NCBI GenBank assembly: GCA_041689615.1
Contig: JBDNFW010000033.1
Coordinates: 258,520 to 322,519 of the forward strand
Origin: Gammaproteobacteria bacterium
Lineage (GTDB): Bacteria; Pseudomonadota; Gammaproteobacteria; Eutrophobiales; Eutrophobiaceae
Direction of reading: 5' to 3'
DNA: 64,000 bases
Made by a program: the position numbers and the translations under genes. How positions within the stretch are numbered: the stretch's first letter is position 1; every line of letters starts with the position of its first letter. Under the pieces are notes generated by a model, which saw nothing but the letters and a program-made list of their open reading frames with translations, was not told the origin of the DNA and did no database searches. Shown piece by piece: positions 34,644 to 50,135 of this stretch.

Positions 34644-36407
34644 TCAAGCCACATTTGCCACACGTTCAAGCTGCCATTCATATTCAACATTCAATGTACG
34701 GCCACCATCACTGTATTCACATTTTCGACATAAATCATATAGTAGAGCGATTCCCCTGCCACTTTTCATTGTGTTTTTTGAAAGTTCAGCCATAACCTGA
34801 GTATGATCGAAACCTATGCCATTATCTTTCATCGTAAAAGAAACAATGCCTTTTTCGTTTTCAACATAGTGATTAATTTCAATCAAAATATTTCCATCAG
34901 TCAATGAATTAAGCTTCGTCTGACGTAAATCATAATATTTAACAAAGCCATTTTCTTCTTCTTTAATAGATGAATCTAAATTTAAAATACCATGCTCTAC
35001 CGCATTTGAGTACATTTCGGTCAAGATTAAAAATATTTTTTCACGGTGACCACCAAAACCTTGCATCTCTACTATCGCCTGAATTAGACCGGGTATAGGA
35101 TTTGTTTTGCTAATAACATCCGTTTTTAAATCAAATTTAACATGCCAATCCATTGGCTTTATTTCATTAGTATGAATTTTATTTTTTCCACGCTTTTTAA
35201 TGAGTTTTTTATCACAATTAATTTCCAGCAATAAAACATCATCTGTTACGGAGGCATTGTTGCTAAATTTTTTAGTCTGATTAACAATAGCATCAACCCT
35301 CTGTTCTAAAGTGCAACTGGACCTAATTGCTTTCAGCAAACCTTCCTCACCAAACATCTCACCCCTTGCATTAAAAACTTCAATTAGCCCATCAGTATAA
35401 GCATAGATACGATCATTTTCTTCAAGGTTGACACTAATAGGAACAACATCTTTTTTATCAAACAATATTATACCTAAAGGCATGTGCATGGAATTCAAGG
35501 TTGTTTTTAATGCCCCATTAGAATTAATGACTAGTACATTAGGCATTCCGGCAATCCATAATTTCATTGATTTATAATCAAAATTGAATTCAATGATAGT
35601 TGCAGCAAGAAAACGGTCCGTAGGCAATAAGAAAAAAATCTTTTTGTTAATTGCTTCTATGATAACCTGGATATCAAAACCTTTGTTGACCATAGAATAA
35701 AATGTTTCACAGGTAATAATTGAACCTATCGCAGCAGGCAAACCATGGCCAGTATTGTCACCAATTAATACAACATGATTTCCGGAAGGTGTTTCTGCTG
35801 AACAGACAATATCACCGCTTAATATATTTTGCGCAACATAAGACCATTCAATATTTCCTGAATTATGAAAACGTGGTTTATGTATATTATAAATAATACT
35901 TTTTGCATCATACAAATCTTTTAATTGCTCATCGCTATGGCTTGCTAAGACTTTTTTTTCATCATACATATCATCATGTATTTTTTTTATACGCAGCAAA
36001 GAGTTTATTTTTGCGTTCAGCAAACCCTCTCTTATTGGTTTTACAAAAAAATCATCTCCGCCAGAGTCAAAACATCTCCCTAAAAATTCATCATCACTTG
36101 CTCCGGTAACGAATACGATTGGTATATATTTATCTGTCGACAACCTTTTCAGTATTCTTGTTAAATCATAACCACTAATATCAGGCAAATTTAAATGCAT
36201 GAAAACAATATCTGGTTTATATTCATTAAATTTATGAATTGCTGCATCACCATTCGGAGCAATGCAAACATCAAAATTATTATTAATGAGCAACCTGCTC
36301 AAAATAATTTGATCCATTCTTGATTCGCCAACAATAAGCGCTTTTACAGAATTATTATCTTCAGAATTAGTTGTATGCTGTACTATTGCAAAAGGGTTTG
36401 TGACCAT
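34644..36407 (-). CDS. three-domain partner-switching regulator: REC (apparently degenerate) - PP2C/SpoIIE phosphatase - RsbW-like HATPase serine kinase
   Basis: 587 aa. REC fold from residue ~20. PP2C metal-binding motif IGDNTGHGLPAA. Kinase N-box LTEMYSNAVEHG and G-box DNGIGFD. Confidence 0.8.
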   Translation of the reverse strand: MVTNPFAIVQHTTNSEDNNSVKALIVGESRMDQIILSRLLINNNFDVCIAPNGDAAIHKFNEYKPDIVFMHLNLPDISGYDLTRILKRLSTDKYIPIVFVTGASDDEFLGRCFDSGGDDFFVKPIREGLLNAKINSLLRIKKIHDDMYDEKKVLASHSDEQLKDLYDAKSIIYNIHKPRFHNSGNIEWSYVAQNILSGDIVCSAETPSGNHVVLIGDNTGHGLPAAIGSIITCETFYSMVNKGFDIQVIIEAINKKIFFLLPTDRFLAATIIEFNFDYKSMKLWIAGMPNVLVINSNGALKTTLNSMHMPLGIILFDKKDVVPISVNLEENDRIYAYTDGLIEVFNARGEMFGEEGLLKAIRSSCTLEQRVDAIVNQTKKFSNNASVTDDVLLLEINCDKKLIKKRGKNKIHTNEIKPMDWHVKFDLKTDVISKTNPIPGLIQAIVEMQGFGGHREKIFLILTEMYSNAVEHGILNLDSSIKEEENGFVKYYDLRQTKLNSLTDGNILIEINHYVENEKGIVSFTMKDNGIGFDHTQVMAELSKNTMKSGRGIALLYDLCRKCEYSDGGRTLNVEYEWQLERVANVA

Positions 36408-36410
36408 GAA

Positions 36411-36710
36411 TCAGGTCACAGTGAACAATTTATCAAAATGTGCGATCTGTATTATTTGCATAACGTTTTTGCTGGCATTTTTTATACTGATTTTGCCATT
36501 GTTTTTATCAGTATATTCCTTAAGCTGTAATAACATTCCAAGTGCAGAACTATCCATATACTGCGTTTTATTCATATCTAACACGAGTGATTTAGCGGAG
36601 GCTTCTTCATAAGCTTGTCTAAACTCTTTATGTAATTGAAAATCAAATTTTTCAGGCAAAGAAATTGTTATTTCATTACCATCGCTAGATTTATTTTTTA
36701 GTAGTCTCAT
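36411..36710 (-). CDS. STAS-domain anti-sigma-factor antagonist (RsbV/SpoIIAA/SypA-like)
   Basis: 99 aa. DSSALGMLL serine-containing STAS motif. Confidence 0.75.
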   Translation of the reverse strand: MRLLKNKSSDGNEITISLPEKFDFQLHKEFRQAYEEASAKSLVLDMNKTQYMDSSALGMLLQLKEYTDKNNGKISIKNASKNVMQIIQIAHFDKLFTVT

Positions 36711-36731
36711 AGTTATTTACCTGGTTTATTA

Positions 36732-37991
36732 TTAAAATAAGTCAATTTCACCTTCAGCCATCGAATTTTGAACTGCAGGTCTTTTATTAGGAAGACTGGT
36801 CAATTCTTCAGCGATTTGATTAATTCTTGATTGCACGTCATTAATCATCTGTTCTGCACGAACGGCATCTTCACATTCTTCTATTTCACACACACCTTCA
36901 GTAAATTTTTGCATAAACTCTGAAAGCACGTTTATTTTTTCGTCGGCATGAATAACAACTTGCCTGACAATATCTTCAAACTGAAGGTTCCTGATAGCGA
37001 CACTTGTTTTGTCTGATATCTCTGTATTAATAACGCCTGCCTGCTCGATTGACTCATCAATAAACGTTTCGAGTAGAGAGAGTGACCCCATCATCGTATC
37101 CACACTCTTTGTGCTTAACATAACCTGTGTCACATCCTCACTAGCAGTATCACCTACCATTTTACTGGCTGTCTGTAGTTTTGATTGAGCTGATGTAACA
37201 CAGCTTTTAATTTCATTATTTAAAATGTTCGACGTTATTGAAAGATTTCTAACTTCATCAGCAACGACAGCAAAACCACGACCTGCTTCTCCAGCTCTTG
37301 CAGCTTCAATAGCGGCATTAAGTGCTAATAAATTTGTTTGATCAGCAATTTGTTTAACTTCATCCAGAAATTTAAATATGGTTGCCATCTCAGTAGATAA
37401 ATCATCTATTGATAAAACAACGTCCATGCTGTGTTTACTGTTCTGGATCATTGTATTAACAAATTCCTCAAGAATTCCTGATGTTTTAGATATAAAACTA
37501 CCGATACTAACTATCTCTTCTTCAAGCTCTTTCTCACCTTCCGAATGTTTTTTTCCCACCACATGTAATCGGCCTGAAAGTTTACTAATCAACTCACCTT
37601 GTGATGACACATCACCACTAATCCCGTAAAAACTTTCATTCAAGTTCATTACTGAATTTGAAATAAGATCCCTGACTTGCCCAAGTTCAGTTTTAATTGA
37701 AGTCATGGACTCACCAATGATGTCATTGACTTTTCCTATCAAATTATGAACGGAGTCTTTTGTTTCTTTTTTATTCGAGCTATTGCCGGAACCCACAGCA
37801 ACATCACCGATTTGACCCTGTATTTGTTTTTCACGACGCATCACCGTCGATACCCAGGAAACAAGAATAAAAATAGAAATCAGCGACTCATGACTCGTAT
37901 TATCAACTATAGAAAAATAGACCAAAGCACCCCCACTCACTAAAAGAGGAAATATATAATTCTTAAGAGATTTGCTACTCTTAATGATCAT
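36732..37991 (-). CDS. methyl-accepting chemotaxis protein, membrane-anchored, without a periplasmic sensor domain
   Basis: 419 aa. Two N-terminal TM helices. Highly conserved MCP tip [32 protein letters not shown]. Confidence 0.85.
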
Positions 37992-38188
37992 TAAAAAGCT
38001 CCATTACATTACATTACATTGTCGTTCCATAAAATAATATCGACACAACTCATTAAAACTTTAAGGAACTTCGACGTTATTTATACTTTTTATAGTCCGC
38101 CATCACTTATCTTATAATGGTTATTTCACAAACAAACTAAATTTCTATCTTATTGATAAAAATAGATTTATTAGCTATTAATCAGAAA

Positions 38189-39298
38189 TTAAGCCGCCAT
38201 GGAAGCGCTTAAAGAAACCAGTCTGTCAACAATCTTATTAAGCGGTAATATGATATCTACAGCGTCGCGTTTTACAGCTTCACCCGGCATTCCCCAAACA
38301 ACACTGCTACGCTCATCCTGAGCAATAGTCACTGCGCCTGCTTGTTTCATTTCCAGCATACCTTCGGCACCATCGTCACCCATACCCGTTAAAATAACAC
38401 CCATGGCATTTTGCCCAAGTTGATTAGCAACAGAGCGAAACAAAACATTAACCGAAGGCCTATGCCGATTAACAGTCGGACCATCGTTTAAACGACAAAT
38501 ATAACGAGCACCGCTTTTTTCAACTAACAAGTGTCTGTTTCCAGGTGCAATATAAGCATGTCCTGCTAGTATCTGTTGTCCATCTGTCGCTTCACAAACT
38601 TTCATTGCCGATAAGCTATCCATTCTCAGAGCAAAGCTAGTGCTAAATTTTTCTGGAATATGCTGTGTAATAACAATACCCGGAGAAGTTGCAGGCATGT
38701 CTTCAAGAAGTTCCCTGATAGCTTCAGTGCCACCGGTAGATGCACCGATAGCAATGATTGAATCTGTTAATTTATAGTTTCGTTTTTTATTATTAAGCTG
38801 CAATACCACATCAGCATTATTCTTTCTGGTAACTTCATGCTTTTTAACCCCCTTATTACTCTTCTTCCGTTTTTCAGAACTTGATTTAACTTGTGCTACC
38901 GATGCAACTTTAACTTTTTCGATTAACTCTGTTGCATAGTCCTGTATAGAGTTACCAAAATTTATTTTTGGCTTAGCTATAAAATCGACGGCGCCCAATT
39001 CCAATGCATCCAGCGTTATCTCTGCTCCCGCTTCAGTTAATGTTGAAACCATTACCACTGGCATCGGTCGTAAACGCATCAAATTAGCAAGAAAGGTAAT
39101 ACCGTCCATATTAGGCATTTCCACATCCAACGTTAATACATCCGGCTTTAACTGCTTAATCTTATCTCTTGCCATTATTGGATCAGCCGCAGTACCAACA
39201 ACGTCTATTCCCTTGTCTGAATTGAGGATCTCAGTCAACATTTTTCTAACCAGTGCTGAGTCATCGATTATTAATACTTTAATTTTTTCAATTGACAT
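38189..39298 (-). CDS. cheB: chemotaxis methylesterase CheB (REC + methylesterase)
   Basis: 369 aa. REC motifs DDSALVRKML and DVEMPNMDG. C-terminal CheB_methylest domain. Confidence 0.9.
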   Translation of the reverse strand: MSIEKIKVLIIDDSALVRKMLTEILNSDKGIDVVGTAADPIMARDKIKQLKPDVLTLDVEMPNMDGITFLANLMRLRPMPVVMVSTLTEAGAEITLDALELGAVDFIAKPKINFGNSIQDYATELIEKVKVASVAQVKSSSEKRKKSNKGVKKHEVTRKNNADVVLQLNNKKRNYKLTDSIIAIGASTGGTEAIRELLEDMPATSPGIVITQHIPEKFSTSFALRMDSLSAMKVCEATDGQQILAGHAYIAPGNRHLLVEKSGARYICRLNDGPTVNRHRPSVNVLFRSVANQLGQNAMGVILTGMGDDGAEGMLEMKQAGAVTIAQDERSSVVWGMPGEAVKRDAVDIILPLNKIVDRLVSLSASMAA

Positions 39299-39318
39299 GT
39301 TTACCTACATTGAGTTTA

Positions 39319-39987
39319 TTAAAATAATTCTACATCACCTTCAATCTTGTCTTCTTCTAAATGTTTCTTATAGTCTTGCTCACGCATGACCACAGTATCA
39401 TTATTCATGGATCGTAATTTTTTAACCTGAAGTTTTCCTGTTTTTGGAAAATAACGCACTTTGCGTGGACAAACATCACCGACATCCTCACTCGCAATAT
39501 CGTAACCTTCCATTTCCAAATATTTTTTTATGAATGAAATGTTCTTACCACCAATATCATTCATTTTTGCCATGATCCTGCCTCCGCCAGTAATCTTAAT
39601 TTCAAAATTATTTTTCCTGCCACCATTTTTTAATAAGTCGTTAACAAGATGTTCCATCGCATCTGAACCATAACGTGCTGCTTTATCTATTTTGTTATAT
39701 TTCCAGCTGTCATCACCTTTCATATTATTCTCCGGCAACATAAAATGGTTCATACCACCGATACCCAATTTAGCATCACGAATACAAACTGAAATACAAG
39801 AACCCAATACGGTCGCAATTATTTCATTTGAACTTGTAACATAGAATTCACCAGGAAGAATTTTGACCATCTCCATATTCATCTGTCGACACCAAAAACG
39901 GTTTATGTTTTCAAAACCCGGTAAGACTTGATTAGATTGATTATTTATTGAATGTATTCCATTCGTTTTTGAAGAAGATTTATTCAT
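39319..39987 (-). CDS. cheD: chemoreceptor glutamine deamidase CheD
   Basis: 222 aa. LGSCISVCIRD...GGMNHFMLP matches the CheD catalytic Cys/His region. Confidence 0.75.
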   Translation of the reverse strand: MNKSSSKTNGIHSINNQSNQVLPGFENINRFWCRQMNMEMVKILPGEFYVTSSNEIIATVLGSCISVCIRDAKLGIGGMNHFMLPENNMKGDDSWKYNKIDKAARYGSDAMEHLVNDLLKNGGRKNNFEIKITGGGRIMAKMNDIGGKNISFIKKYLEMEGYDIASEDVGDVCPRKVRYFPKTGKLQVKKLRSMNNDTVVMREQDYKKHLEEDKIEGDVELF

Positions 39988-40005
39988 AAATAATATCTCT
40001 TTAAA

Positions 40006-40857
40006 TCAGGCTGCCTTCTGGTGTATGGTCTTTCCTATCAGCGTAAATCTATCAGTTACTTTATAAAGGCTTTCTGAATGACCAATAAACATATGTGCGT
40101 CTTCTTTAAGTTTGTTTGCAAATTTCTCAAACAAAACACGTTGTGTATCTTTATTAAAGTAAATCACTACGTTTCGACAAAACAAAACATCAAATTGGCC
40201 TTGCATTGGCCAATCTCCCATCAAATTTAACTCTTTAAAAGTGATTAATTCTCTGAGTTTCGGACTAACTTTTACTTCACTAGATTCACATTCAATTCCT
40301 GGTTTTGAGAACCATTTATTAAAACGCTCCTTACTTACACCGCTAATTTTATCTTTTAGATAGATACCTTGACTGGCTTTAGAAAGAACATTGGTATCGA
40401 TATCGGTTGCCAATATTTTAACGTCCCAACTATTAATATTTGGAATGGATTCGAGCAAGGTCATCGCAATCGTGTAAGGCTCTTCACCGGTAGAACAACC
40501 GGCAGACCATATTCGTATTTGTTTTTCTCGTTTTCGCTGTTGTAATAAATATTTAACGACGGTATCGCCTAAATATTCAAAATGATGTGCCTCACGATAA
40601 AAACTGGTTAAGTTGGTGGTAATTGAATTAACAAACTCAACCAGCTCACCTTCCGGATTATTTTTAAGTAAATGACAATATTGATCAAAATTATCAAGAT
40701 CGAGTTTCCTTACACGTCGCGCCAATCGACCATAGACAAGATCTCTTTTCTTTTCGGTAAGAGCAATACCCGTTTTTTCCAAAACCATTTTAATAAGCCA
40801 GTTAAAATGCTTATCAGTAAACTTAAATTCACGTCTGGATTCCATCTTTATCCCCAA
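40006..40857 (-). CDS. cheR: chemotaxis methyltransferase CheR
   Basis: 283 aa. FFREAHHFEYL and IWSAGCSTGEEPYTIAM SAM-binding motif. Confidence 0.9.
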   Translation of the reverse strand: MGIKMESRREFKFTDKHFNWLIKMVLEKTGIALTEKKRDLVYGRLARRVRKLDLDNFDQYCHLLKNNPEGELVEFVNSITTNLTSFYREAHHFEYLGDTVVKYLLQQRKREKQIRIWSAGCSTGEEPYTIAMTLLESIPNINSWDVKILATDIDTNVLSKASQGIYLKDKISGVSKERFNKWFSKPGIECESSEVKVSPKLRELITFKELNLMGDWPMQGQFDVLFCRNVVIYFNKDTQRVLFEKFANKLKEDAHMFIGHSESLYKVTDRFTLIGKTIHQKAA

Positions 40858-40883
40858 GAGGAAGATGTGTTAAACAATCTTTC

Positions 40884-41342
40884 TTATGCTGCTATCGAAG
40901 GAAGGTTTACAATATCTTTCATACCTAGTAATTCTACTGCGTGACAAAAAGCCTCACTGGGTTTATCCCAGATAACCTTTTTGCCTCCCTCTATAGCGAA
41001 CAAATAGAACCCCAATAATAATTGCAAGGCTGCTGTATCAACTTTCTCTACCTGATCTGATTCGAATACCAACTCAGTTTCATCAGGACTAATATTATTT
41101 AACTCCTCCATTAATTCTGCGATGTCTCTAATAGTAATGGAGCTTTGCAGCTTAATTAAATAGGGAGCATTTCCTTTCTCTTCAACAACACTATCTCCTG
41201 TTGTCACCGCCTCTATATTCTCATTAAGCACTGAGATTTTTTCTTCTTCGCTTAACCATGCAAGAGGATCAACACCAATCAAATTCGTTTTATCTTTTGT
41301 TTTATCATTCATAGTTTTATCCTGTTTATATCGTTCGTCCAT
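40884..41342 (-). CDS. STAS-domain protein (anti-sigma antagonist-like) inside the che operon
   Basis: 152 aa. The C-terminal half has the STAS pattern (VDTAALQLLLGF). Confidence 0.5.
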   Translation of the reverse strand: MDERYKQDKTMNDKTKDKTNLIGVDPLAWLSEEEKISVLNENIEAVTTGDSVVEEKGNAPYLIKLQSSITIRDIAELMEELNNISPDETELVFESDQVEKVDTAALQLLLGFYLFAIEGGKKVIWDKPSEAFCHAVELLGMKDIVNLPSIAA

Positions 41343-42078
41343 GTGCTAAATCCAGCGCTAATGATCCATAATCAGCAGCACCATTACTATTTTTCCTGTA
41401 TTCAAATATAGTCTTTCCAAAACTGGGACATTCAGCAAGAGCCGCCGCTTCACGTATCCGGGTAGCGAGAACCTGTTTAGGGAAATATTGTTTCAACGTA
41501 TCCATCACTTGTTGTGGTAATCGACGGCGTGTATTAAATCGTGTCATAACAAACGATTCATGGATCTTATGCCCAAGTTTTTCAAAATTTTTGAATGTCC
41601 CTATCAGGTAAGATAAACCTTGCAAGGAGAGGTAATCACCCGCTACCGGAATCAAAGCTTCGTTAGTGGAGAAAAGTGCATTTATGACAAGCAAACCAGA
41701 AGCAGGTGGACAATCAATCAACACATAATCCTGATCCTGAAAACGACCTTTCATGGCATCTCGTAATAAAGTACCGCGTTTAATACCTCGCATCGCTTTA
41801 TATTCAAGACTTCCTAACTCAGGCCCTGAAGGTATGAGTGATAAACCAGGCCGTACTTGTTTGACACAGTCCTCGATCGGATATTCATCCAGCAACACTG
41901 AGTCGAGCCCAGGATTTTGCAAATAATCTTCACCCAAACTCGTCGTCAAATGTCCCTGTGGGTCAAGATCGATGACTGTGACCTTGTGTTGGTTCAAAAC
42001 AAGAGCGTGAGCTAAATTCGCTGTCGTCGTTGTTTTACCAACACCGCCCTTTTGGTTGATAACTGCTATTGTGCGCAT
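41326..42078 (-). CDS. ParA/MinD-family ATPase associated with the chemosensory cluster
   Basis: 250 aa. Deviant Walker A motif NQKGGVGKTTT. Confidence 0.8.
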   Translation of the reverse strand: MRTIAVINQKGGVGKTTTTANLAHALVLNQHKVTVIDLDPQGHLTTSLGEDYLQNPGLDSVLLDEYPIEDCVKQVRPGLSLIPSGPELGSLEYKAMRGIKRGTLLRDAMKGRFQDQDYVLIDCPPASGLLVINALFSTNEALIPVAGDYLSLQGLSYLIGTFKNFEKLGHKIHESFVMTRFNTRRRLPQQVMDTLKQYFPKQVLATRIREAAALAECPSFGKTIFEYRKNSNGAADYGSLALDLAHGRTI

Positions 42079-42153
42079 AAGTTCCCTCCATGCTGTTGTC
42101 CACTAAAGACAAACCTCTACCCAAAGCTTCTAGGGAAATTTCCAGAAACTATC

Positions 42154-45100
42154 CTAGAACTCATCCCACTCACTATCGCTACCAGCACCGGCGGCTTTGG
42201 ATTGTACTTTAGCCGCTGATTTCTTAGGTTGTGATTTTTCTGGAGTCCATGGTCGTTCATCTCTACTACGGCGTTCACCTGCAGCTGCTGTGCTACCGCC
42301 TGTTGAATTATTTCCTGTATTGAAAAATGATATCAACTCAGTTAAACCTTTGGCCTGCTCATCCATGGATTCACTAGCCGCTGCCGCTTCTTCAACCAAT
42401 GATGCGTTTTGTTGCGTCATCTCGTCCATTTGCGCTATGGCTTTATTAATCTGGTCTATACCGGTTGATTGCTCACTACTGGCTGCAGCTATCTCGGCAA
42501 TGATATCGTTAACTTTTTGCACTGAATCAACAATTTGTCCTAAGTTGGTACCGGATTCATTAACAAGTTTTGAACCTTCTTCAACTTTCTGTACGCTATC
42601 ATTAATCAGTGTCTTGATTTCCTTAGCAGCTCCGGCACTACGTTGAGCCAGATTTCGAACTTCGGCAGCAACAACCGCAAAGCCTCGACCCTGTTCACCT
42701 GCTCGGGCTGCTTCAACTGCGGCATTTAAAGCCAACAAATTAGTCTGGAAAGCAATCTCATCAATAACACCTATGATATCTGCAATCTTCTTGCTCGCCT
42801 GATTGATTTCACTCATTGCGGCAATCGCATCAGTCACTACAGCTCCACCTTTTTCAGCTTCAGTTCGTGCGCCCGCAGCCAATTGATTTGCCTGCTGTGC
42901 ATTGTCTGCATTTTGTTTCACTGTGCCAGTTAGCTCTTCAATACTGGAGGCTGTTTCTTCTAACGAAGACGCCTGCTCTTCAGTACGTTGACTTAGATCC
43001 AGGTTGCCCTGTGCAATTTCATTCGCAGAAGTATTAATAGAGCTTGCACTTTCACGAATCTCACCTACCATTTTCATTAGATTGGAAATTGAAGTATTCA
43101 CCGCACCTTGCATCGTCAAGAACTGACCTTCGAATTCACCATTCATCGTCTGTGTTAAATCACCATCAGACAAACTTTCAATAACACGAGTTGACTCATT
43201 GATAGGCACAACAACTGCATCCATCAAATTGTTAATCGATGAAGCCAATCTCTTTGTAAAACCGGAAAAGTCATCGACTTCAAGTCGAGTACCCAATTCA
43301 CCATTAGTTGCAGCATTGATAAGATTTTCTATTTGTCGCTCTGCATTTTTTTCCTCAGTAATATCACGCCATTCAACCATGTTGCCCATGTAGTTGCCTT
43401 CGGGATCTGTAATGGCAGTGGCATTCAATCCAAACTCCATGCCACCTACTTTTATTTCAGCATTGGCAGGCAAACTAGCCACATCACCTAACAAACGTCG
43501 TTGATGTGCCGGATTTTTATGAAACTGATCTATACATTCGCCTACCAACTTATCAACATTCAGACTAGGCCAGATAGAACGTAATTCAGTTTGTCGATTT
43601 CTTAACATTTCAACAACAGCAGGGTTAACATAAGTGATATTCAAATCCTCATCACAAAGCATCAAGTTAGCCTGTGCGCCATCAACAGCCGATTGCAAAC
43701 GTGCCACTTCAAGATCACGTTGACGCATTGCAGTCACGTCTTCCCATTCCAGTGTTGTACCGATGTAAGTACCGTTCAGATCCATTTGTGCTGAAACCAC
43801 CAGTTTGAACTTGAGATCAAGAATTTCAATATCGGTTGTGTAAGGTAGGTTCTTTGGATCATCTAATAATTTACGTTGATGCGCTGGGTTTTTATGAAAC
43901 ACATCGATACACGTACCCATAACATTGTTTGCATCAAAACCAGGCCAATTCTCAGCGAATTTAGCCTGATGTTTTGCCAATAATGCGTTAGTTGATTCAT
44001 TAACATAAGTAATGATGAAATCACGGTCGATCATGATCATTGGTGATTGCGCACCATCAACAGCGACTTGTAAGCGAGCTGAGGCTATTTGTTGTTGACG
44101 TAATGCGGTACCATCAGTTGCATATTTGACAACTTTAAAAGTATTTCCATTCATATCAAAAACGGCGTTGTAACTTGCATTGAGCCAAAGCTCTTCACCT
44201 TTCTTATTTAAACGTTTGAATTGACCGCTCTGTGATTCGCCGTTACTTAACTTTTTCCAAAAATCCTTGTATTCCTGACTTCCTGCATAGGTAGCATCAA
44301 CAAACATACTGTGATGTTTTCCTTTGATCTCTTCTAACGTGTAACCAACTGCATTAGTAAAATTTTCATTCGCAGTAATAATCGTACCATCGAGATTAAA
44401 CTCGATCGCTGCTTGAGTTTTACTTATAGCGTCCAACTTTCCTGAAAAATCGGCATACTCAAGTTTTTGAGCGGTCACGTCAGTCGCAAACTTCACAACT
44501 TTATAAGCCTTTCCATCTTTAAAGACTGGGTTGTAAGAGGCATTAATCCAGATTTCTTTACCACCCTTTCCGATACGTTTGTATTCACCGGCATCGAACT
44601 CACCACGATTCAGTTTTTCCCAGAATTGTTTGTATTCCGGACTTGCTGCATAAGTAGGCTCAACAAACATACTGTGATGCTTACCTTGAATCTCTTCCAA
44701 ACTATAATCTATGACATTTAGAAAATTTTCATTCGCTGTGATGACTGTACCATCCAGATTGAATTCAATCGTTCCCTGTACCTTATCTATTGCGGTAATC
44801 TTGCCCAACAACTCTTCATGTTGTTTTTTAAGACTATCCAATTCTTGTTTCAATGTTTCGTTGTTATCTAAATTATCCATTTTTTGATCCTCTTCTTTCA
44901 TTTCTTCATTTCCCGAATTTTCGTATGCACCCAACATTGCTGATGCGACCGTGTTTAAAGCATTTGTCCAGGCCTGTTTAACATCATCGGTCCACAGGTC
45001 TCCTGCAAATTCACTCATTACTTCAAGTAATACTTCTGCTACTGCCGGATACTGCTCGGCAACAACACCATATTTCTGATGATTCTTTCCCAGATTACTT

Positions 45101-45336
45101 AGGGCTGGCCCTAATACATCGGGCTTACGAATGTTATTAACTACCAGCGCCAATCCGGACAAGAGTTTCTTTTCTTGCTCTTTCTGATCAACATTGGCAA
45201 ACATCGGTTTCACATCCGGGTAGCGTGAAAACAATTCACTGTAGAATTTTTCTACCAATGCCTCACCCTGAGGTGCAAGTTTGGCAAAGGTGTCTTCGAC
45301 TAATTTAATCTGTCTTTGGGTCAGCTTTTTGCTCAT
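42154..45336 (-). CDS. soluble chemoreceptor: N-terminal Vgb/Hmp-type globin, 4 PAS domains (two tandem pairs), MCP signalling domain
   Basis: 1060 aa. Globin domain (KNHQKYGVVAEQYPAVAEVLLEVM, proximal His context). PAS repeats (GTIEFNLDGT.ITANENF; FHKNPAHQR). MCP tip [32 protein letters not shown]. No TM segments are evident. Confidence 0.85.
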   Translation of the reverse strand: MSKKLTQRQIKLVEDTFAKLAPQGEALVEKFYSELFSRYPDVKPMFANVDQKEQEKKLLSGLALVVNNIRKPDVLGPALSNLGKNHQKYGVVAEQYPAVAEVLLEVMSEFAGDLWTDDVKQAWTNALNTVASAMLGAYENSGNEEMKEEDQKMDNLDNNETLKQELDSLKKQHEELLGKITAIDKVQGTIEFNLDGTVITANENFLNVIDYSLEEIQGKHHSMFVEPTYAASPEYKQFWEKLNRGEFDAGEYKRIGKGGKEIWINASYNPVFKDGKAYKVVKFATDVTAQKLEYADFSGKLDAISKTQAAIEFNLDGTIITANENFTNAVGYTLEEIKGKHHSMFVDATYAGSQEYKDFWKKLSNGESQSGQFKRLNKKGEELWLNASYNAVFDMNGNTFKVVKYATDGTALRQQQIASARLQVAVDGAQSPMIMIDRDFIITYVNESTNALLAKHQAKFAENWPGFDANNVMGTCIDVFHKNPAHQRKLLDDPKNLPYTTDIEILDLKFKLVVSAQMDLNGTYIGTTLEWEDVTAMRQRDLEVARLQSAVDGAQANLMLCDEDLNITYVNPAVVEMLRNRQTELRSIWPSLNVDKLVGECIDQFHKNPAHQRRLLGDVASLPANAEIKVGGMEFGLNATAITDPEGNYMGNMVEWRDITEEKNAERQIENLINAATNGELGTRLEVDDFSGFTKRLASSINNLMDAVVVPINESTRVIESLSDGDLTQTMNGEFEGQFLTMQGAVNTSISNLMKMVGEIRESASSINTSANEIAQGNLDLSQRTEEQASSLEETASSIEELTGTVKQNADNAQQANQLAAGARTEAEKGGAVVTDAIAAMSEINQASKKIADIIGVIDEIAFQTNLLALNAAVEAARAGEQGRGFAVVAAEVRNLAQRSAGAAKEIKTLINDSVQKVEEGSKLVNESGTNLGQIVDSVQKVNDIIAEIAAASSEQSTGIDQINKAIAQMDEMTQQNASLVEEAAAASESMDEQAKGLTELISFFNTGNNSTGGSTAAAGERRSRDERPWTPEKSQPKKSAAKVQSKAAGAGSDSEWDEF

Positions 45337-45380
45337 ATCAATATCCTTGGCATACTATAAAATAACCATTTTTAAATTAA

Positions 45381-45824
45381 TTAAACTGCAATTTTATGTT
45401 CAATTTCATCATAGGCCGCCAGCATTATTTCGGCGACGGTGTTCAGTGCATTGGTCCAGGCTTGTTTAACGTCATCCGTCCATAAGTCACCCGCCATGTC
45501 GCTCATGACACTCAGTAATGTCTCTGCCACTACCGGATAATGTGCGGCAACTGCACCGTAGCCTTGATGTTTTTTACCGAGATTACTCAAGGCAGGGCCT
45601 AAGTCCTCTGGTTTACGTAAGTTATTAATCACTAGCACCAGACCCGACAGAAGCTTCTTTTCTTGTTCCTTTTGATTAACATTCTTAAACATCGGCTTCA
45701 CTTCAGGATGACGAGAAAATAATTCACTGTAAAATTTTTCAACCAGAACCGCACCCTGAGGCGCAAGTTTACCGAACGTTTCTTCGAGTAGTTCTATTTG
45801 TGTCTCGTTTAGTGGTTCGTTCAT
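45381..45824 (-). CDS. single-domain haemoglobin (Vitreoscilla Vgb / flavohaemoglobin N-domain type)
   Basis: 147 aa. About 75 % identical to the globin domain of the adjacent MCP. KKHQGYGAVAAHYPVVAETLL aligns with Vgb [20 protein letters not shown]. Confidence 0.8.
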   Translation of the reverse strand: MNEPLNETQIELLEETFGKLAPQGAVLVEKFYSELFSRHPEVKPMFKNVNQKEQEKKLLSGLVLVINNLRKPEDLGPALSNLGKKHQGYGAVAAHYPVVAETLLSVMSDMAGDLWTDDVKQAWTNALNTVAEIMLAAYDEIEHKIAV

Positions 45825-45868
45825 TTTTTTGCTCTCTGATTCGACTAAATTATTATTCTGATTAATGT

Positions 45869-46411
45869 TTAGTGTGTTGTTGGACTTTTTTTTTGAGCAT
45901 TAGCTGAATTAACAACTTGAGTAATATCAATATCTGCATCAATAAGATGATCAATATCCAGCAAGATCAACATCTTTTCATCAACCGTTGCCAGTCCTTT
46001 GACAAACTTTGTATTAACGGCTTTACCAAAATCTGGCGATGGTTTTAATTGTTCTTCGGTCAAGTTATAAACATCGGATACGGCATCAACAATAAAACCG
46101 ATAGTTTTTTCCTTTTTCTCGGTTTTTGTCTTTAAGACGATAACAACTGTCGTATTGCTATATTCAACTTGTTCAAGTTCAAATCGACTTCGAAGATCGA
46201 CAATTGGCACTATCGTGCCACGCAGGTTCATAACGCCTTGTATATATTTAGGCGTATTTGGAATTTCTGTAGCACTTTCCCAACCTTTGATTTCCTGAAC
46301 CCTTAAAATATCCACACCATATTCTTCACCCGCTAACATAAACGTCAGAAATTGATTGGCATTATCTGAATCTAATTCAACAACACTTTCTTCTCTAACT
46401 TCAGCGTTCAT
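45869..46411 (-). CDS. cheW: CheW coupling protein
   Basis: 180 aa. GVMNLRGTIVPIVDLR CheW motif. Confidence 0.85.
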   Translation of the reverse strand: MNAEVREESVVELDSDNANQFLTFMLAGEEYGVDILRVQEIKGWESATEIPNTPKYIQGVMNLRGTIVPIVDLRSRFELEQVEYSNTTVVIVLKTKTEKKEKTIGFIVDAVSDVYNLTEEQLKPSPDFGKAVNTKFVKGLATVDEKMLILLDIDHLIDADIDITQVVNSANAQKKSPTTH

Positions 46412-46423
46412 AATTCCTTACTC

Positions 46424-48493
46424 CTATGCTGCTTGGTTATTCATAACAGATGATGTTTTATATTCTTCTTGCTTACGATAGAGACCTAATAGACTTGTTA
46501 CATCTAGAATCATTGCGACGGTACCATCACCTAAAATAGTCGCACCAGATACGCCTTCTACCTTTTGGAAATTTGTTTCCAGACTTTTTATAACAACTTG
46601 TTGCTGAGCAAGTAAGTCGTCAATAAACAAACCTACTTTTTGACCTTCTGATTCAACAACAACTAATAGACCATTTACAAGTTCTGTATTATTACTAGCG
46701 ACATTAAATATTTCATGTAAACGTAATATAGGTAGATAATCTTCACGTAACCTATAAACCTCTGCATCACCTGTAATCGATTTAGTGTGCTCTTCTTTTA
46801 TTTGTATTGATTCGATAATTGAAACTAAAGGAATAATGTAAGTTTGAGTACCTACTTTAATGAGTTGTCCATCGAGTATTGCCAGTGTTAATGGTAAGCG
46901 TATTGTAAAGACTGAACCTTTACCTTCTTCTGATTTAACTTCGACAGTTCCACCAAGGTCATGAATATTACGTTTGACAACATCCATACCGACGCCGCGA
47001 CCGGATACATCACTAACTACTTCAGCGGTTGAAAAACCGGCATGGAAAATAAGTTCATTAATTCTTCTATCCGATAGTGTTTCGCCTTCCTTAACGAGTC
47101 CACGTTCAATTGCTTTACTTAGAATTCGTTCTCTATTAAGGCCAGCGCCGTCATCTTCAATATCAATAACGATATTGCCACCCTCATGATAAGCATTAAG
47201 ATGTATTGTGCCTGTTTCCGGCTTACCTGCAGCAAGACGAACTTCAGGCATTTCGATGCCATGATCGAGTGAATTTCTTACCAGATGAACAAGTGGATCA
47301 CCAATCTTCTCCATGACTGTCTTATCAAGTTCTGTTCCTTCACCTGACAATTTAAGCTCGATTTTTTTATTCAACTTGCTACTTAAATCATGAACCAGTC
47401 GAGGAAATCGGTTAAACGAAAAACTGATTGGCAACATACGAATTTGCATCACATTTTCTTGTAGTTCACGCGTATTTCGTTCCAACTGTTTTAGACCATC
47501 GCTTAACTTCTCAACATCTTTCATATCAAAGTCTTCACCAAATTGTCCTAGCATCGATTGAGTGATAACCAGTTCGCCGACCATATTAATCAATGTATCA
47601 ATTTTATCTGTATTAACTCGTATAGAAGATGATTCGCTACTAGCACCATGGCGGTCAGTACTTCTTCTATCTCCTGCTCTTCTATCTCCTGCTCTTCTAT
47701 CTTCTGCTGATGCTACTTCTTTTACTTGATTATCAGTTGATGGCTTATTGTCATTATTTGTTTCAATTGAATCACTAGAACTAATTTGAGTGATAATTAA
47801 CTCGCAATCATCTTCTACCCATTCAAAGACTTCTTTCACTTTATCTTCGTCAACATCCGTCGTAAGAGTTAGATCCCATGACAAATAACATTCTTCAGTA
47901 TCGTATTTATCAAAGGGAGGCAGATTATCAATATGAAGCTCGGTGGATAATTCACCAAACTCTTCCAGTTCGCGGAACATGCGTAAAGGGTCATTGCCTG
48001 TCTGGAACATATGATGATGAGGTACAAAATTAATATGCCAACCAGAACCGGCTAGACTACTGTCACTACTTTCACCAGCGTCCACTTCAGTCTGAGAATT
48101 TGATTCAACTCCCAATGCCTTTTCTAGTTCACTCTGGACTGACTTGATATGCTCTTCGTCTATTTCTGTTTTATCTCGTGCTGCTGATAGCATCTCACGT
48201 AAGCAATCAACTGAAGTTAGTAATAAATTGACCTCTTCCTGATTCAGCTCATGTTTCCCTGAACGAACATCATCAAGTAGCGTTTCAAGAACATGCGTAA
48301 AACCGGTTATCTCATTAAAACCAAAACTACCACTACCACCTTTGATAGAATGCGCGGCACGAAATATTTTGTTTATTTCTTCATCACCAGGATCTTTATA
48401 ATCGAGCTCAAGAAGCTCGGTTTCCATAATTTCCAAGCCTTCAAAACTTTCTTCAAAGAAGACACCGTGAAACTGAGTTAGGTCAATCGACAT
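46424..48493 (-). CDS. cheA: CheA histidine kinase (Hpt-linker-dimerisation-HATPase-CheW)
   Basis: 689 aa. Hpt motif FRAAHSIKGGSGSFGF. HATPase G-boxes. C-terminal CheW-like domain. RRAGDRRAGDRRSTDR low-complexity linker. Confidence 0.9.
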   Translation of the reverse strand: MSIDLTQFHGVFFEESFEGLEIMETELLELDYKDPGDEEINKIFRAAHSIKGGSGSFGFNEITGFTHVLETLLDDVRSGKHELNQEEVNLLLTSVDCLREMLSAARDKTEIDEEHIKSVQSELEKALGVESNSQTEVDAGESSDSSLAGSGWHINFVPHHHMFQTGNDPLRMFRELEEFGELSTELHIDNLPPFDKYDTEECYLSWDLTLTTDVDEDKVKEVFEWVEDDCELIITQISSSDSIETNNDNKPSTDNQVKEVASAEDRRAGDRRAGDRRSTDRHGASSESSSIRVNTDKIDTLINMVGELVITQSMLGQFGEDFDMKDVEKLSDGLKQLERNTRELQENVMQIRMLPISFSFNRFPRLVHDLSSKLNKKIELKLSGEGTELDKTVMEKIGDPLVHLVRNSLDHGIEMPEVRLAAGKPETGTIHLNAYHEGGNIVIDIEDDGAGLNRERILSKAIERGLVKEGETLSDRRINELIFHAGFSTAEVVSDVSGRGVGMDVVKRNIHDLGGTVEVKSEEGKGSVFTIRLPLTLAILDGQLIKVGTQTYIIPLVSIIESIQIKEEHTKSITGDAEVYRLREDYLPILRLHEIFNVASNNTELVNGLLVVVESEGQKVGLFIDDLLAQQQVVIKSLETNFQKVEGVSGATILGDGTVAMILDVTSLLGLYRKQEEYKTSSVMNNQAA
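47637..47702 (-). repeat. 15-bp tandem repeat (ctcctgctcttctat, about 2.5 copies) encoding the RRAGD repeats in the CheA linker
   Basis: Direct tandem copies are visible in the DNA. Confidence 0.7.
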
Positions 48494-48551
48494 TATTTCT
48501 CTTCCTTAATGTATTCTTCATTTAAAATTCTTCCCTTAATAATTTTTCTAA

Positions 48552-48932
48552 TCAGGCAATAACTTTTTTAATGGTTGCGAGCAATTGATCTGGATTAAAT
48601 GGTTTAACTAACCAGCCTGTCGCTCCAGCAGTCTTTCCTTTGCCTTTCATATCGGCTGATGATTCAGTAGTTAACATCAACATAGGCGTATGTTTATAAT
48701 TAGGTAACTTACGTAACTCCTGTATTAATGTGATGCCATCCATATTCGGCATATTGACATCCGTCAATACTGCGTCAGAATTACTAGCTTTCGCTTTGTT
48801 TAGAGCATCCACTCCATCCACAGCTTCTATCACATCGTAACCTGCTCCTTTTAATGTGAATGCCACCATTTGGCGCATTGAAGCTGAATCATCTACTGTA
48901 AGAATTGTTGCCATAATAATTGATATCCTCAA
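48552..48932 (-). CDS. cheY: CheY response regulator
   Basis: 126 aa. Intact DD (TVDDSASM), phospho-Asp context LTDVNMPNMDG and KP. Confidence 0.9.
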   Translation of the reverse strand: MRISIIMATILTVDDSASMRQMVAFTLKGAGYDVIEAVDGVDALNKAKASNSDAVLTDVNMPNMDGITLIQELRKLPNYKHTPMLMLTTESSADMKGKGKTAGATGWLVKPFNPDQLLATIKKVIA

Positions 48933-49987: not shown

Positions 49988-49990
49988 AAA

Positions 49991-50120: not shown

Positions 50121-50135
50121 TTTTATAAGGTTCCT

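What the first reader, a model, noticed from the sequence alone, without database searches (positions are those of the whole stretch)
34644..48932. Thirteen-gene chemosensory operon whose output appears to be a SypE/RsbUW-like partner-switching module rather than the flagellar motor
All thirteen genes are co-directional. Both receptors lack periplasmic sensor domains, and one has no TM segments. Together with the ParA-like ATPase this suggests a cytoplasmic array. The terminal REC-PP2C-HATPase plus STAS pair has the same domain repertoire as Vibrio fischeri SypE/SypA and Bordetella BtrU/W/V, which control biofilm and secretion. The implied route is gas or redox sensing by haem-globin and PAS, then CheA, then a Ser/Thr phospho-switch. 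No sigma factor is nearby, so the switch target is unknown.
Basis: partly seen in the sequence, partly recalled or inferred. Interest (0 to 1): 0.7.

Follow-up and report, generated by a model that had tools for sequence, protein, structure and literature searches.

The report
Haem-sensing F7 chemosensory cluster with partner switch
This is a variant of an already described, ancient "chemotaxis-like" gene cluster that senses oxygen through haem proteins and sits next to a protein switch which in related bacteria controls stress and flagellar sigma factors. This copy adds a positioning ATPase with a portable docking peptide, and its switch protein has lost its phosphorylation site.

Summary
The 13 co-directional genes exist as described. 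The architecture is not new. It is the "stage 1" F7 chemosensory cluster of Gammaproteobacteria (Ortega 2020), and its terminal STAS plus REC-PP2C-kinase pair corresponds to Shewanella CrsA/CrsR and Pseudomonas HsbA/HsbR, which control RpoS (and FlgM). SypE has a different domain order. The receptor is a soluble 36H Aer2-type MCP with two haem-PAS domains and an added Vitreoscilla-type globin.

Four things differ here:
- The REC domain of the three-domain protein lacks the phospho-acceptor Asp (H71) and the acidic pocket. The Asp was lost at least 4 times in this clade and never in 82 homologues outside it. CheA-to-REC phosphotransfer is therefore excluded in this organism.
- A conserved sigma-28-type promoter lies in the 197-bp gap before the last three genes.
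- The ParA-like ATPase belongs to a subfamily found only inside F7 clusters.
- The gene immediately 3' of that ParA usually starts with a basic-GxDPLAW(L/M)-acidic peptide, carried on a STAS protein, on the Aer2-like receptor or on a globin-STAS fusion. This points to a dedicated array-positioning module.

Verdict: new variant of a known kind.

The parts
48552..48932 (-). CheY (single REC). The ORF runs from a TTG at 48932; the probable start is the ATG at 48914. Acidic pocket, acceptor Asp, Thr and Lys are all intact.
   Evidence: Pfam Response_reg 1.1e-27; sequence; alignment
46424..48493 (-). CheA (Hpt, dimerisation, HATPase and CheW-like domains).
   Evidence: Pfam. Full-length match to the E. 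coli-type CheA model NF007835, 653 bits
45869..46411 (-). CheW.
   Evidence: Pfam CheW 1e-37
45381..45824 (-). Stand-alone single-domain globin of the Vitreoscilla/flavohaemoglobin type. It is 75% identical to the receptor's N-terminal globin, so it is a recent duplicate. It is absent from the five relatives examined.
   Evidence: Pfam Globin. Best PDB match 1vhb, with Tyr-B10, Gln-E7, His-F8 and Tyr-G5 aligned. BLASTP 75% identity. Relatives:
42154..45336 (-). Soluble Aer2-type receptor of 1060 aa. Order of parts: globin (about 44902-45336), two PAS_3 domains, two Aer2-type haem-PAS domains (about 43342-44064; each has FHKNPAHQR and the Trp), HAMP, a 36H signalling domain (42316-43218), and the C-terminal pentapeptide EWDEF (42157-42171).
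   Evidence: Pfam. NCBIfam Vibrio Aer2 NF041847, 857 bits over residues 384-1060. Gapless 301-residue alignment to Tsr 217-517. Alignment to P. aeruginosa and V. cholerae Aer2 PAS structures. No hydrophobic segment; conserved EW[DE]EF C-terminus
41326..42078 (-). ParA-like ATPase with a deviant Walker A (K10-GGVGK15-T) and an invariant basic patch (R180, R184-186). It belongs to a subfamily found only inside F7 che clusters.
   Evidence: Pfam AAA_31/CbiA/ParA; alignment. All 12 metagenomic relatives at 46% identity or more are inside che clusters; none of 68 at 43% or less are
40884..41342 (-). STAS protein of 152 aa, proposed to be the ParA adaptor. [quoted passage not shown]
   Evidence: Pfam STAS_2. 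Homologues lie upstream of cheY or before cheR in other F7 loci. Alignment
41238..41282 (-). N-terminal peptide LIGVDPLAWLSEEEK (residues 21-35 of the 152-aa STAS), the candidate ParA-interaction motif.
   Evidence: Invariant in six clade proteins. The motif was found only at the N-terminus of the gene 3' of the che-type ParA, on STAS, on the Aer2-like MCP or on a globin-STAS fusion
40006..40857 (-). CheR methyltransferase (probable start at 40845).
   Evidence: Pfam CheR/CheR_N; called gene of 279 aa
39319..39987 (-). CheD deamidase.
   Evidence: Pfam CheD; NCBIfam NF010013, 245 bits, above cut-off
38189..39298 (-). CheB methylesterase with an intact REC.
   Evidence: Pfam; NCBIfam CheB 453 bits; alignment
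38037..38063 (-). Sigma-28 (FliA)-type promoter motif TAAAGTTT-N11-GTCGATAT, 46 nt upstream of the 419-aa MCP start codon.
   Evidence: 2 matches in the window against 0.08 expected by chance. Conserved at the same place in L002 and L083-L086
36732..37991 (-). McpA-like receptor of 419 aa: a membrane hairpin without a periplasmic domain, and a conserved C-terminus EGE[IV]DLF.
   Evidence: Pfam MCPsignal; hydropathy and relatives. Homologues occupy the same position in other F7 loci and in Magnetococcales loci
36411..36710 (-). STAS anti-sigma-factor antagonist of 99 aa (CrsA/HsbA-like). The phosphorylatable Ser motif D53-S54-S55 is at 36546-36554.
   Evidence: Pfam STAS; TIGR00377. 'DSS' is invariant in 82 of 82 homologues
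34644..36407 (-). Three-domain CrsR/HsbR-like protein. Asp-less receiver at 35988-36347 (H71 codon 36195-36197). PP2C at 35208-35822. GHKL Ser-kinase/anti-sigma domain at 34668-35087.
   Evidence: Pfam. Homologues are named HsbR by JGI. PP2C and kinase catalytic residues are invariant, whereas positions 27, 28 and 71 read G, E, H. Alignment with the window's CheY and CheB and with Pseudomonas HsbR

Best explanation
This locus is a lineage-specific variant of the ancestral 'stage 1' F7 chemosensory cluster of Gammaproteobacteria. That class also includes V. cholerae cluster III, P. aeruginosa Che2 and S. oneidensis Che1.

Shown from sequence:
- A soluble 36H Aer2-type receptor carries two haem-PAS domains plus an extra Vitreoscilla-type globin. 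It is encoded with CheA, CheW, CheY, CheR, CheD and CheB.
- The last three genes are an McpA-like receptor, a CrsA/HsbA-like STAS with an invariant phospho-Ser motif, and a CrsR/HsbR-like REC-PP2C-kinase with intact phosphatase and kinase motifs.
- The REC of that protein has no acceptor Asp.

Inferred mechanism:
1. O2, NO or redox state is read by the haem domains and sets CheA activity. CheA can phosphorylate only CheY and CheB.
2. The array is positioned or partitioned by the che-specific ParA-like ATPase. That ATPase docks onto the basic-GVDPLAWL-acidic peptide at the N-terminus of the 152-aa STAS protein, whose STAS domain is proposed to sit on the array. This parallels PpfA and the N-terminus of TlpT.
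3. The three-gene switch module can be transcribed from its own sigma-28-type promoter.
4. The kinase domain phosphorylates, and the PP2C domain dephosphorylates, Ser54/55 of the 99-aa STAS. By analogy with CrsR/CrsA and HsbR/HsbA, this decides whether RpoS is held by the kinase domain and whether the STAS is free to bind another partner such as FlgM.
5. Any coupling from the Che array to the switch must go through protein-protein contact (for example CheY-P or the array-bound STAS acting on the pseudo-receiver). It cannot go through Asp phosphorylation of the REC.
For: - Gene content and order match the published stage-1 F7 description and the S. oneidensis che1 locus with CrsR/CrsA.
- Receptor: Aer2 model 857 bits; 36H by gapless alignment to Tsr; His and Trp of both haem-PAS domains conserved; globin with the VHb haem-pocket residues.
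- Switch protein: close homologues are named HsbR by JGI. It is 30-35% identical over its full length to Pseudomonas hsbA-hsbR-hptB loci and to many F7-linked loci. PP2C residues D199/D217/D339/D389-390 and kinase residues E464/N468/G530/G550-552 are invariant. STAS 'DSS' is found in 82 of 82 homologues.
- Asp-less REC. At least 4 independent losses in the clade and none in 82 outside homologues.
- ParA: the che-restricted subfamily and the docking peptide that follows ParA onto three different carrier proteins. General precedent that ParA/MinD ATPases bind an N-terminal region of the partner, and the PpfA-TlpT case.
- Sigma-28 motif.
- Roles of CrsR/HsbR towards RpoS and of HsbA towards FlgM.
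Against: - No experiment exists for this organism, which is an uncultured gammaproteobacterium.
- RpoS or FlgM as targets rests on 30-35% identity to HsbR-type proteins. CrsR itself could not be retrieved for direct comparison.
- A link between CheA or CheY and CrsR has not been demonstrated in any organism. The papers say only 'could be involved'.
- Ortega et al. describe two cheW-like genes in stage 1, but only one is present here.
- The ParA-peptide interaction and the array association of the 152-aa STAS are comparative inferences only.
- The sigma-28 motif in the window has two mismatches in the -10 element.
- Read-through from cheB is not excluded, because no terminator was predicted in the gap.
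Confidence: 0.55

Rival explanations
1. CheA phosphorylates the REC domain of the three-domain protein. This toggles phosphatase against kinase activity, so the partner switch is the direct phospho-output of the Che pathway.
For: In HsbR, phosphorylation of the REC (by HptB) switches the protein from kinase to phosphatase mode. The REC-PP2C-kinase gene is linked to che genes in many lineages, and there the Asp is present. CheA's P1 domain is the only Hpt domain encoded nearby.
Against: In this protein the acceptor Asp is His71 and the Asp-Asp pocket is Gly27-Glu28, whereas the window's own CheY and CheB are canonical. 12 of 35 clade members lack the Asp, through at least 4 independent losses, while PP2C and kinase motifs stay invariant. 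Phospho-acceptance is therefore dispensable in this lineage.
Confidence: 0.05
2. The last three genes (McpA-like receptor, STAS, REC-PP2C-kinase) form an independent module of the flagellar sigma-28 regulon. It merely neighbours the F7 genes and acts like HsbR/HsbA on FlgM/FliA and RpoS, without input from the F7 CheA.
For: A conserved sigma-28-type promoter lies directly upstream. The three genes move as a unit relative to the che genes (stage 2; divergent orientation in L018, L044, L088, L089, L093). S. oneidensis McpA signals to the motility system Che3, not to Che1. Non-phosphorylated HsbA binds FlgM. Pseudomonas hsbAR lies between fliJ and fliK without che genes. The Asp-less REC removes the obvious Che input.
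Against: The module remains adjacent to F7 che genes over large evolutionary distances, and in Magnetococcales it is embedded in the middle of a different che operon. This argues for functional coupling. In several other lineages sigma-28-like motifs also precede the whole F7 cluster, so sigma-28 control does not separate the two parts. S. oneidensis RT-PCR shows co-transcription across the locus.
Confidence: 0.3
3. The cluster is an ordinary aerotaxis system whose CheY controls the flagellar motor. The STAS and phosphatase genes would be incidental neighbours.
For: A complete Che set with an intact CheY. Haem-based oxygen receptors mediate aerotaxis in other bacteria. There is a sigma-28-type promoter inside the locus.
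Against: Stage 1 and 2 F7 systems coexist with an F6 system that runs the motor, and they lack cheZ. No cheZ or cheV is present in the locus. The native role of Aer2 receptors in aerotaxis is unproven. The tight, conserved linkage to the partner switch argues against incidental neighbours.
Confidence: 0.1

Closest known systems
Stage-1 F7 chemosensory clusters of Gammaproteobacteria (Ortega et al. [quoted passage not shown]
   Same: [quoted passage not shown] The receptor is 36H with PAS-haem domains.
   Different: Only one cheW is present. The 5' STAS has moved to sit between the receptor and cheR, and it carries an N-terminal extension. A ParA-like ATPase has been inserted. A globin is fused to the receptor and a free globin paralogue is present. 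The phosphatase protein has an Asp-less REC. There is an internal sigma-28-type promoter.
Shewanella oneidensis che1 locus with CrsR/CrsA (Bouillet 2016/2017; Fortier 2022)
   Same: A three-domain REC-PP2C-kinase/anti-sigma protein plus a STAS antagonist are encoded in an F7 che locus with Aer2 and McpA receptors. The proposed role is post-translational control of RpoS.
   Different: The S. oneidensis locus has 10 genes, with no ParA and no globin. The CrsR sequence could not be retrieved, so orthology is inferred through HsbR-type homologues and synteny. The REC acceptor is missing here.
Pseudomonas HptB-HsbR-HsbA pathway
   Same: Same REC-PP2C-kinase order with an upstream STAS gene. 30-31% identity over the full length to Pseudomonas loci with hsbA-hsbR-hptB order. 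JGI names the close homologues HsbR.
   Different: No hptB gene follows here. The REC cannot be phosphorylated. The Pseudomonas locus is not next to che genes. HsbA partners (FlgM, HsbD) are untested here.
Vibrio fischeri SypE/SypA and Bordetella BtrU/W/V
   Same: The same domain repertoire: RsbW-like Ser kinase, PP2C phosphatase, REC and a STAS substrate.
   Different: SypE is kinase-REC-PP2C, not REC-PP2C-kinase. The Bordetella Btr proteins are, as I recall, separate polypeptides; this was not checked. Neither is che-linked as far as I know (not checked). They resemble this system in how they work, but it is not a member of their families.
Rhodobacter sphaeroides PpfA-TlpT and Vibrio ParC-ParP array-positioning systems
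   Same: A ParA-like ATPase is encoded inside a che cluster next to a soluble receptor. The partner is recognised through an N-terminal region.
   Different: This is a different che class (F7). The docking peptide sits on a STAS protein here, and on the Aer2-like receptor or a globin-STAS fusion in relatives. Sequence relationship to PpfA or ParC was not tested. The DPLAW motif was not found in the searched literature.
Haem-based gas receptors: Aer2 (PAS-haem) and HemAT-type globin-coupled sensors; Vitreoscilla haemoglobin and flavohaemoglobins
   Same: The Aer2 part is canonical. The globin has the Tyr-B10, Gln-E7, His-F8 and Tyr-G5 pocket of VHb/FHb.
   Different: The globin belongs to Pfam Globin PF00042 (VHb/FHb lineage), not to the Protoglobin/sensor-globin family. 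It is combined with Aer2 haem-PAS domains in one receptor. A 2026 aerotaxis review treats the two receptor types as separate classes. Such fusions are nevertheless common in metagenomes: 10 of 10 long hits tested.

Membership tests
Stage-1 F7 chemosensory cluster (Ortega et al. 2020) | cheY-cheA-cheW ... cheR-cheD-cheB core in this order | tested here: met
   Pfam and NCBIfam assignments and coordinates
Stage-1 F7 chemosensory cluster (Ortega et al. 2020) | Aer2-like receptor: no TM segment, PAS-haem, 36H signalling domain | tested here: met
Stage-1 F7 chemosensory cluster (Ortega et al. 2020) | mcpA-like receptor followed by a STAS and a serine phosphatase at the 3' end | tested here: met
   McpA likeness rests on position and 31-38% identity to receptors at the same position in other F7 loci. 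P. aeruginosa McpA itself was not compared.
Stage-1 F7 chemosensory cluster (Ortega et al. 2020) | An additional STAS (anti-sigma-factor antagonist) at the 5' end of the cluster | tested here: inconclusive
   A homologous STAS is present but relocated between the receptor and cheR. The same position occurs in L023, L051, L087 and L092.
Stage-1 F7 chemosensory cluster (Ortega et al. 2020) | Two cheW-like genes | tested here: not met
   Only one CheW-domain gene besides cheA
Stage-1 F7 chemosensory cluster (Ortega et al. 2020) | CheA/CheB/CheR classified as F7 by class-specific HMMs or phylogeny; an F6 system elsewhere in the genome | not testable with these tools
   No class HMMs are available and only a 64-kb window is given. 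Indirect support: the CheA match to the E. coli-type model is full length.
CrsR/HsbR three-domain partner-switch regulators | Domain order REC - PP2C phosphatase - GHKL Ser kinase/anti-sigma, with a STAS gene immediately upstream | tested here: met
CrsR/HsbR three-domain partner-switch regulators | Catalytic residues of PP2C and kinase present; phosphorylatable Ser present in the STAS partner | tested here: met
CrsR/HsbR three-domain partner-switch regulators | Phosphorylatable receiver (acceptor Asp) that sets the phosphatase/kinase balance | tested here: not met
   H71, G27 and E28. All 82 homologues outside the clade have Asp.
CrsR/HsbR three-domain partner-switch regulators | The C-terminal domain binds RpoS; the STAS releases it | not testable with these tools
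   Needs two-hybrid or pull-down assays. Known only for S. oneidensis and P. aeruginosa proteins.
SypE/SypA | N-terminal Ser kinase, central REC, C-terminal PP2C | tested here: not met
   The order here is REC-PP2C-kinase.
Aer2 receptors | PAS domain with the haem-ligating His (FHKNPAHQR) and the O2-stabilising Trp; PAS-HAMP in line; C-terminal xWxxF pentapeptide | tested here: met
   Both PAS copies keep the His and the Trp. HAMP_2. C-terminus EWDEF, conserved in relatives.
Globin-coupled sensors of the HemAT/Protoglobin type | Sensor-globin (Pfam Protoglobin) domain directly coupled to the output | tested here: not met
   The globin matches PF00042 and VHb/FHb structures. There was no Protoglobin hit at E<=0.01.
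che-associated ParA-like positioning ATPases (PpfA/ParC kind) | Deviant Walker A ATPase encoded within a che cluster, adjacent to its cargo or partner gene | tested here: met
   KGGVGKT at residues 10-16. Exclusive che linkage of the subfamily.
che-associated ParA-like positioning ATPases (PpfA/ParC kind) | The partner's N-terminal region binds the ATPase and stimulates it; loss mis-positions the arrays | not testable with these tools
   Only comparative evidence: the motif co-travels with ParA.

The most novel reading that the evidence does not exclude
F7 (Aer2-type) chemosensory arrays in a set of marine gammaproteobacteria have their own ParA-like partitioning ATPase. Its cargo is specified by a short portable N-terminal tag (basic patch, then (I/L)GxDPLAW(L/M), then an acidic run). 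Evolution has placed this tag on the Aer2-like receptor, on a globin-STAS fusion, or on the formerly enigmatic '5' STAS' of stage-1 F7 clusters. That implies this STAS is a structural, array-bound adaptor rather than a phospho-switch substrate. In the same lineage the CrsR/HsbR-like switch protein has repeatedly lost its receiver Asp. Whatever couples the F7 array to the RpoS/FlgM partner switch would therefore work by protein contact rather than phosphotransfer.
Probability: 0.45. Interest if true: 0.6.

Novelty: new variant of a known kind. Interest (0 to 1): 0.45.

Why it matters
The output of ancestral F7 systems (P. aeruginosa Che2, V. cholerae cluster III, S. oneidensis Che1) is a long-standing open question. 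The favoured idea is that CheA talks to the CrsR/HsbR-type switch.

This clade offers a natural experiment. The che genes, the STAS Ser motif and the phosphatase and kinase motifs are all kept, yet the receiver Asp has been lost at least four times. This argues that phosphotransfer to that receiver is not essential for whatever keeps these genes together. It also points experiments towards CheY-P or STAS contacts.

The che-restricted ParA subfamily and its docking peptide give a directly testable handle on two further questions: how soluble F7 arrays are positioned, and what the unexplained first STAS gene of stage-1 clusters does.

The globin-Aer2 hybrid could bind up to three haems per receptor subunit, using two haem-protein folds. 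It is a candidate for multi-gas or wide-range O2 sensing.

Tried and rejected
- A profile search with the 43-57-residue N-terminal peptide alignment against the 5.8-billion-protein set returned one fragment only. The motif distribution was obtained instead by regex on fetched loci.
It returned neither the source genome nor Shewanella, so CrsR could not be compared directly.
- The two JBC CrsR papers and Roberts 2012 (PpfA) are not held in the library.
- The heptad class of the 419-aa MCP could not be decided. Only the hairpin-tip region aligns to Tsr, with one indel.
- Rfam found nothing in the window. The consensus scan found no terminator or sigma-70 promoter in any intergenic gap of the locus on the coding strand.
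- No source gives the organism a name. The nearest labelled relatives are MAGs called Thiotrichaceae or Gammaproteobacteria.
- A literature search for the DPLAW motif found nothing relevant.
- I considered that the 152-aa STAS is a second substrate of the kinase and rejected it. The putative phospho-site is Thr here, Ala in all five close relatives and variable elsewhere.
- I considered that the Lys-rich tail of the 152-aa STAS is the conserved element and rejected it. Only the GVDPLAWL-acidic core is invariant within the clade, although a short basic patch precedes the motif in most other lineages.
- Structure prediction was not run.

Full report
**1. Observation**

The window carries 13 consecutive minus-strand ORFs from 48932 to 34644. 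Pfam gives this order: CheY, CheA, CheW, a 147-aa globin, a 1060-aa Globin-PAS-PAS-PAS-PAS-HAMP-MCP, a ParA-like ATPase, a 152-aa STAS, CheR, CheD, CheB, a 419-aa MCP, a 99-aa STAS, and a 587-aa REC-PP2C(SpoIIE)-HATPase_c_2 protein.

Gaps are -17 to 75 nt, except for 197 nt between cheB and the 419-aa MCP. The large receptor has no hydrophobic segment. The small one has a two-helix membrane hairpin with a loop of about 7 residues. The description is correct. Two small corrections apply: CheY probably starts at the ATG at 48914, and CheR probably starts at 40845.

The same locus, in the same neighbourhood (CitMHS transporter, then Mrp-type antiporter genes), occurs in five metagenomic relatives whose terminal protein is 45-64% identical. 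It is a conserved unit, not a chance run of genes.

The source is an uncultured gammaproteobacterium. No source names it, and the nearest labelled relatives are MAGs called Thiotrichaceae or Gammaproteobacteria.

**2. What it is**

The architecture is already described. Ortega et al. [quoted passage not shown]

In Shewanella oneidensis the equivalent che1 locus ends with CrsA (STAS) and CrsR (receiver, phosphatase, kinase/anti-sigma). These form a partner switch that sequesters or releases RpoS. The P. aeruginosa homologues HsbR/HsbA do the same, and non-phosphorylated HsbA also binds FlgM.

The window's 587-aa protein has the CrsR/HsbR domain order. Its 63-65% identical homologues are named "HptB-dependent secretion and biofilm response regulator" (HsbR) by JGI. 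It is 30-35% identical over its full length to proteins in 80 genome loci. Those loci include Pseudomonas ones with fliJ-hsbA-hsbR-hptB-fliK order.

It resembles this protein in repertoire but is not the family.

Linkage of the STAS plus REC-PP2C-kinase pair to F7-type che genes recurs in Thalassolituus, Bacterioplanoides, Oceanobacter, Cellvibrionaceae, Cycloclasticus, Thiotrichales and other MAGs. In Magnetococcales the pair is embedded in a different che operon.

**3. The receptor**

- Residues 384-1060 match the NCBIfam Vibrio Aer2 model (857 bits).
- The signalling domain aligns without gaps to Tsr 217-517, so it is 36H.
- Both C-terminal PAS domains keep the Aer2 FHKNPAHQR histidine motif and the Trp.
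- The C-terminus is an EWDEF pentapeptide, conserved as EW[DE]EF in relatives.
- The N-terminal globin and the free globin are 75% identical to each other. They belong to the Vitreoscilla-haemoglobin/flavohaemoglobin lineage, with Tyr-B10, Gln-E7, His-F8 and Tyr-G5 aligned. They are not HemAT-type sensor globins.

A 2026 aerotaxis review treats Aer2 and globin-coupled receptors as separate classes. An exhaustive search nevertheless shows that Globin-PAS-MCP fusions are frequent in metagenomes: 10 of 10 long hits tested.

**4. The switch protein cannot accept phosphate on its receiver**

Aligned with the window's own CheY and CheB and with Pseudomonas HsbR, the 587-aa protein reads VGES and FMHLNLP where the others read (D/E)DS and (T/L/M)D. 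The Thr and Lys positions are kept.

In a 35-member clade, 12 proteins lack the Asp (N, H or S), while every PP2C metal ligand and every kinase N- and G-box residue is invariant. On a neighbour-joining tree this needs at least 4 independent losses. Among 82 homologues outside the clade the Asp is always present.

The partner STAS keeps an invariant D-S-S motif in 82 of 82 homologues.

**5. An internal promoter**

The 197-nt gap contains TAAAGTTT-N11-GTCGATAT at 38037-38063, 46 nt before the 419-aa MCP start. From my own knowledge (not from a tool result), the consensus for sigma-28/FliA promoters is TAAAGTTT-N11-GCCGATAA.

There are two matches in the window against 0.08 expected by chance. 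The motif is the only conserved block in the aligned intergenic regions of all five relatives. No terminator is predicted in the gap, so read-through remains possible.

This fits three published or observed facts. The last three genes move as a unit in other lineages (divergent orientation in L018, L044, L088, L089 and L093). S. oneidensis McpA signals to the motility system rather than to Che1. HsbA interacts with FlgM.

**6. The ParA-like ATPase and the 152-aa STAS**

The ATPase is the most conserved protein of the locus: 89-92% identity where the switch protein is 45-64% identical. A metagenome scan returned 80 ParA relatives. All 12 with at least 46% identity lie inside F7-type che clusters, and none of the 68 with 43% or less do.

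The short STAS of other stage-1 clusters (about 95 aa, upstream of cheY) corresponds to the C-terminal half of the 152-aa protein. The window clade adds an N-terminal extension whose only invariant element is LIGVDPLAWLSEEEK.

A regex for [DN]PL.W[LIVM] was run first over six-frame translations of the 86 loci held at that point plus the window. A slightly looser version, [DN]P[LIVM].W[LIVM], was then run over the 80 further metagenomic loci. In every che-linked case the hit was at the N-terminus of the gene immediately 3' of the che-type ParA. There was one unrelated hit, to the looser pattern. The carriers are:
- a STAS protein (window, L002, L083-L086, L087, L090, L092);
- the Aer2-like receptor itself (L044, L088, L089, L091, L093, L098);
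- a globin-STAS fusion (L094).

L096 has a degenerate double copy of the motif behind a histone-like Lys-rich tail.

[quoted passage not shown] I therefore infer that the peptide is the ParA docking and activating tag, and that the 152-aa STAS is an array-bound adaptor. Its putative phospho-site is Thr here but Ala in all five close relatives, which argues against a phospho-switch role.

ParA presence correlates with a globin on the receptor: 12 loci have both, 3 have ParA only, 2 have a globin only, and 11 have neither. These counts are not phylogenetically independent.

**7. Mechanism and confidence**

- Identity as a stage-1-type F7 cluster with a CrsR/HsbR-like switch: about 0.9.
- Haem-based gas or redox sensing feeding CheA, CheY and CheB: likely, by homology.
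- ParA-peptide positioning of the array: about 0.5.
- RpoS and/or FlgM as the targets of the switch: about 0.5, by family analogy only.
- Coupling between the Che array and the switch: unproven in any organism. Here it must be non-canonical, for example CheY-P or STAS contact with the pseudo-receiver. Alternatively it is absent, which is the main rival (0.3).

**8. Novelty and score**

The headline finding, a Che operon with a partner-switch output, is known (2016-2022 literature). The variant features were not found in the literature held here. They are: the che-restricted ParA subfamily with a portable docking peptide, the relocated STAS as adaptor, the VHb-type globin on an Aer2 receptor with a free paralogue, the repeatedly lost receiver Asp, and the conserved internal sigma-28 motif.

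I rate this a new variant of a known kind, with interest 0.45.

Noticed in passing
window 1337-18817 (-): A PUFA-synthase-like (pfa) gene set: a 2254-aa KS-AT-4xACP-KR-DH protein, a 2190-aa KS/FabA-domain protein and an enoyl-reductase-like protein. A KSIII/thiolase-like gene and an alpha/beta-hydrolase gene lie downstream.
   Followed up: partly
window 19108-22221 (+): Squalene/phytoene synthase followed by squalene-hopene cyclase, which suggests hopanoid synthesis in this organism.
   Followed up: no
window 51780-51806 (+): A second sigma-28-type motif, TAAAGGTT-N11-GCCGATAA (1 mismatch), 53 nt upstream of a DUF454 ORF (51859-52302). Together with the site at 38037-38063 it is one of only two matches in the window, against 0.08 expected.
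   Followed up: partly
L094 6747-7766: One 340-aa protein combines the ParA-docking peptide, a Lys-rich stretch, a VHb-type globin and a STAS domain. It is encoded between parA and a globin-Aer2-like receptor. This fusion links globin, STAS and receptor.
   Followed up: partly
L096 1538-2503: The STAS protein 3' of parA has a histone-H1-like Lys-rich tail of about 75 residues, two degenerate DP[LF]AMI motifs and a Pro-Glu repeat before the STAS domain.
   Followed up: no
L056 pos 3; L091 pos 640; L094 pos 2613: Sigma-28-like motifs also precede the first gene (STAS or cheY) of F7 clusters in other lineages. This hints that some stage-1 F7 clusters belong to the FliA regulon as a whole.
   Followed up: no
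L003, L006-L008, L010, L015, L020, L027 (Magnetococcales): The STAS plus REC-PP2C-kinase pair is embedded in the middle of a different che operon: CheA-CheW-MCP-STAS-switch-CheB-CheR-CheY-CheY.
   Followed up: no
L039 11174-11512: An Hpt-like ORF directly follows the HsbR-like gene in an F7-linked locus of an Enterobacterales MAG. That locus therefore combines che linkage with a possible HptB-type input.
   Followed up: no
proteins P0141, P0144, P0147, P0151, P0164: Giant proteins (1842-3690 aa) with 7-14 tandem globin domains of the same VHb-like family appeared at the top of the globin search.
   Followed up: no
window 49322-50600 (+): SCO1/SenC and PCuAC copper chaperones, which I know as cytochrome oxidase assembly factors, are divergently transcribed from the che cluster and share its 389-nt upstream region.
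   Followed up: no
window 27623-34558 (-) and L002, L083-L086: A CitMHS-family transporter and a multi-subunit Mrp/Nuo-like antiporter set always follow the switch gene in the clade. This synteny is conserved across proteins of 45-64% identity.
   Followed up: no
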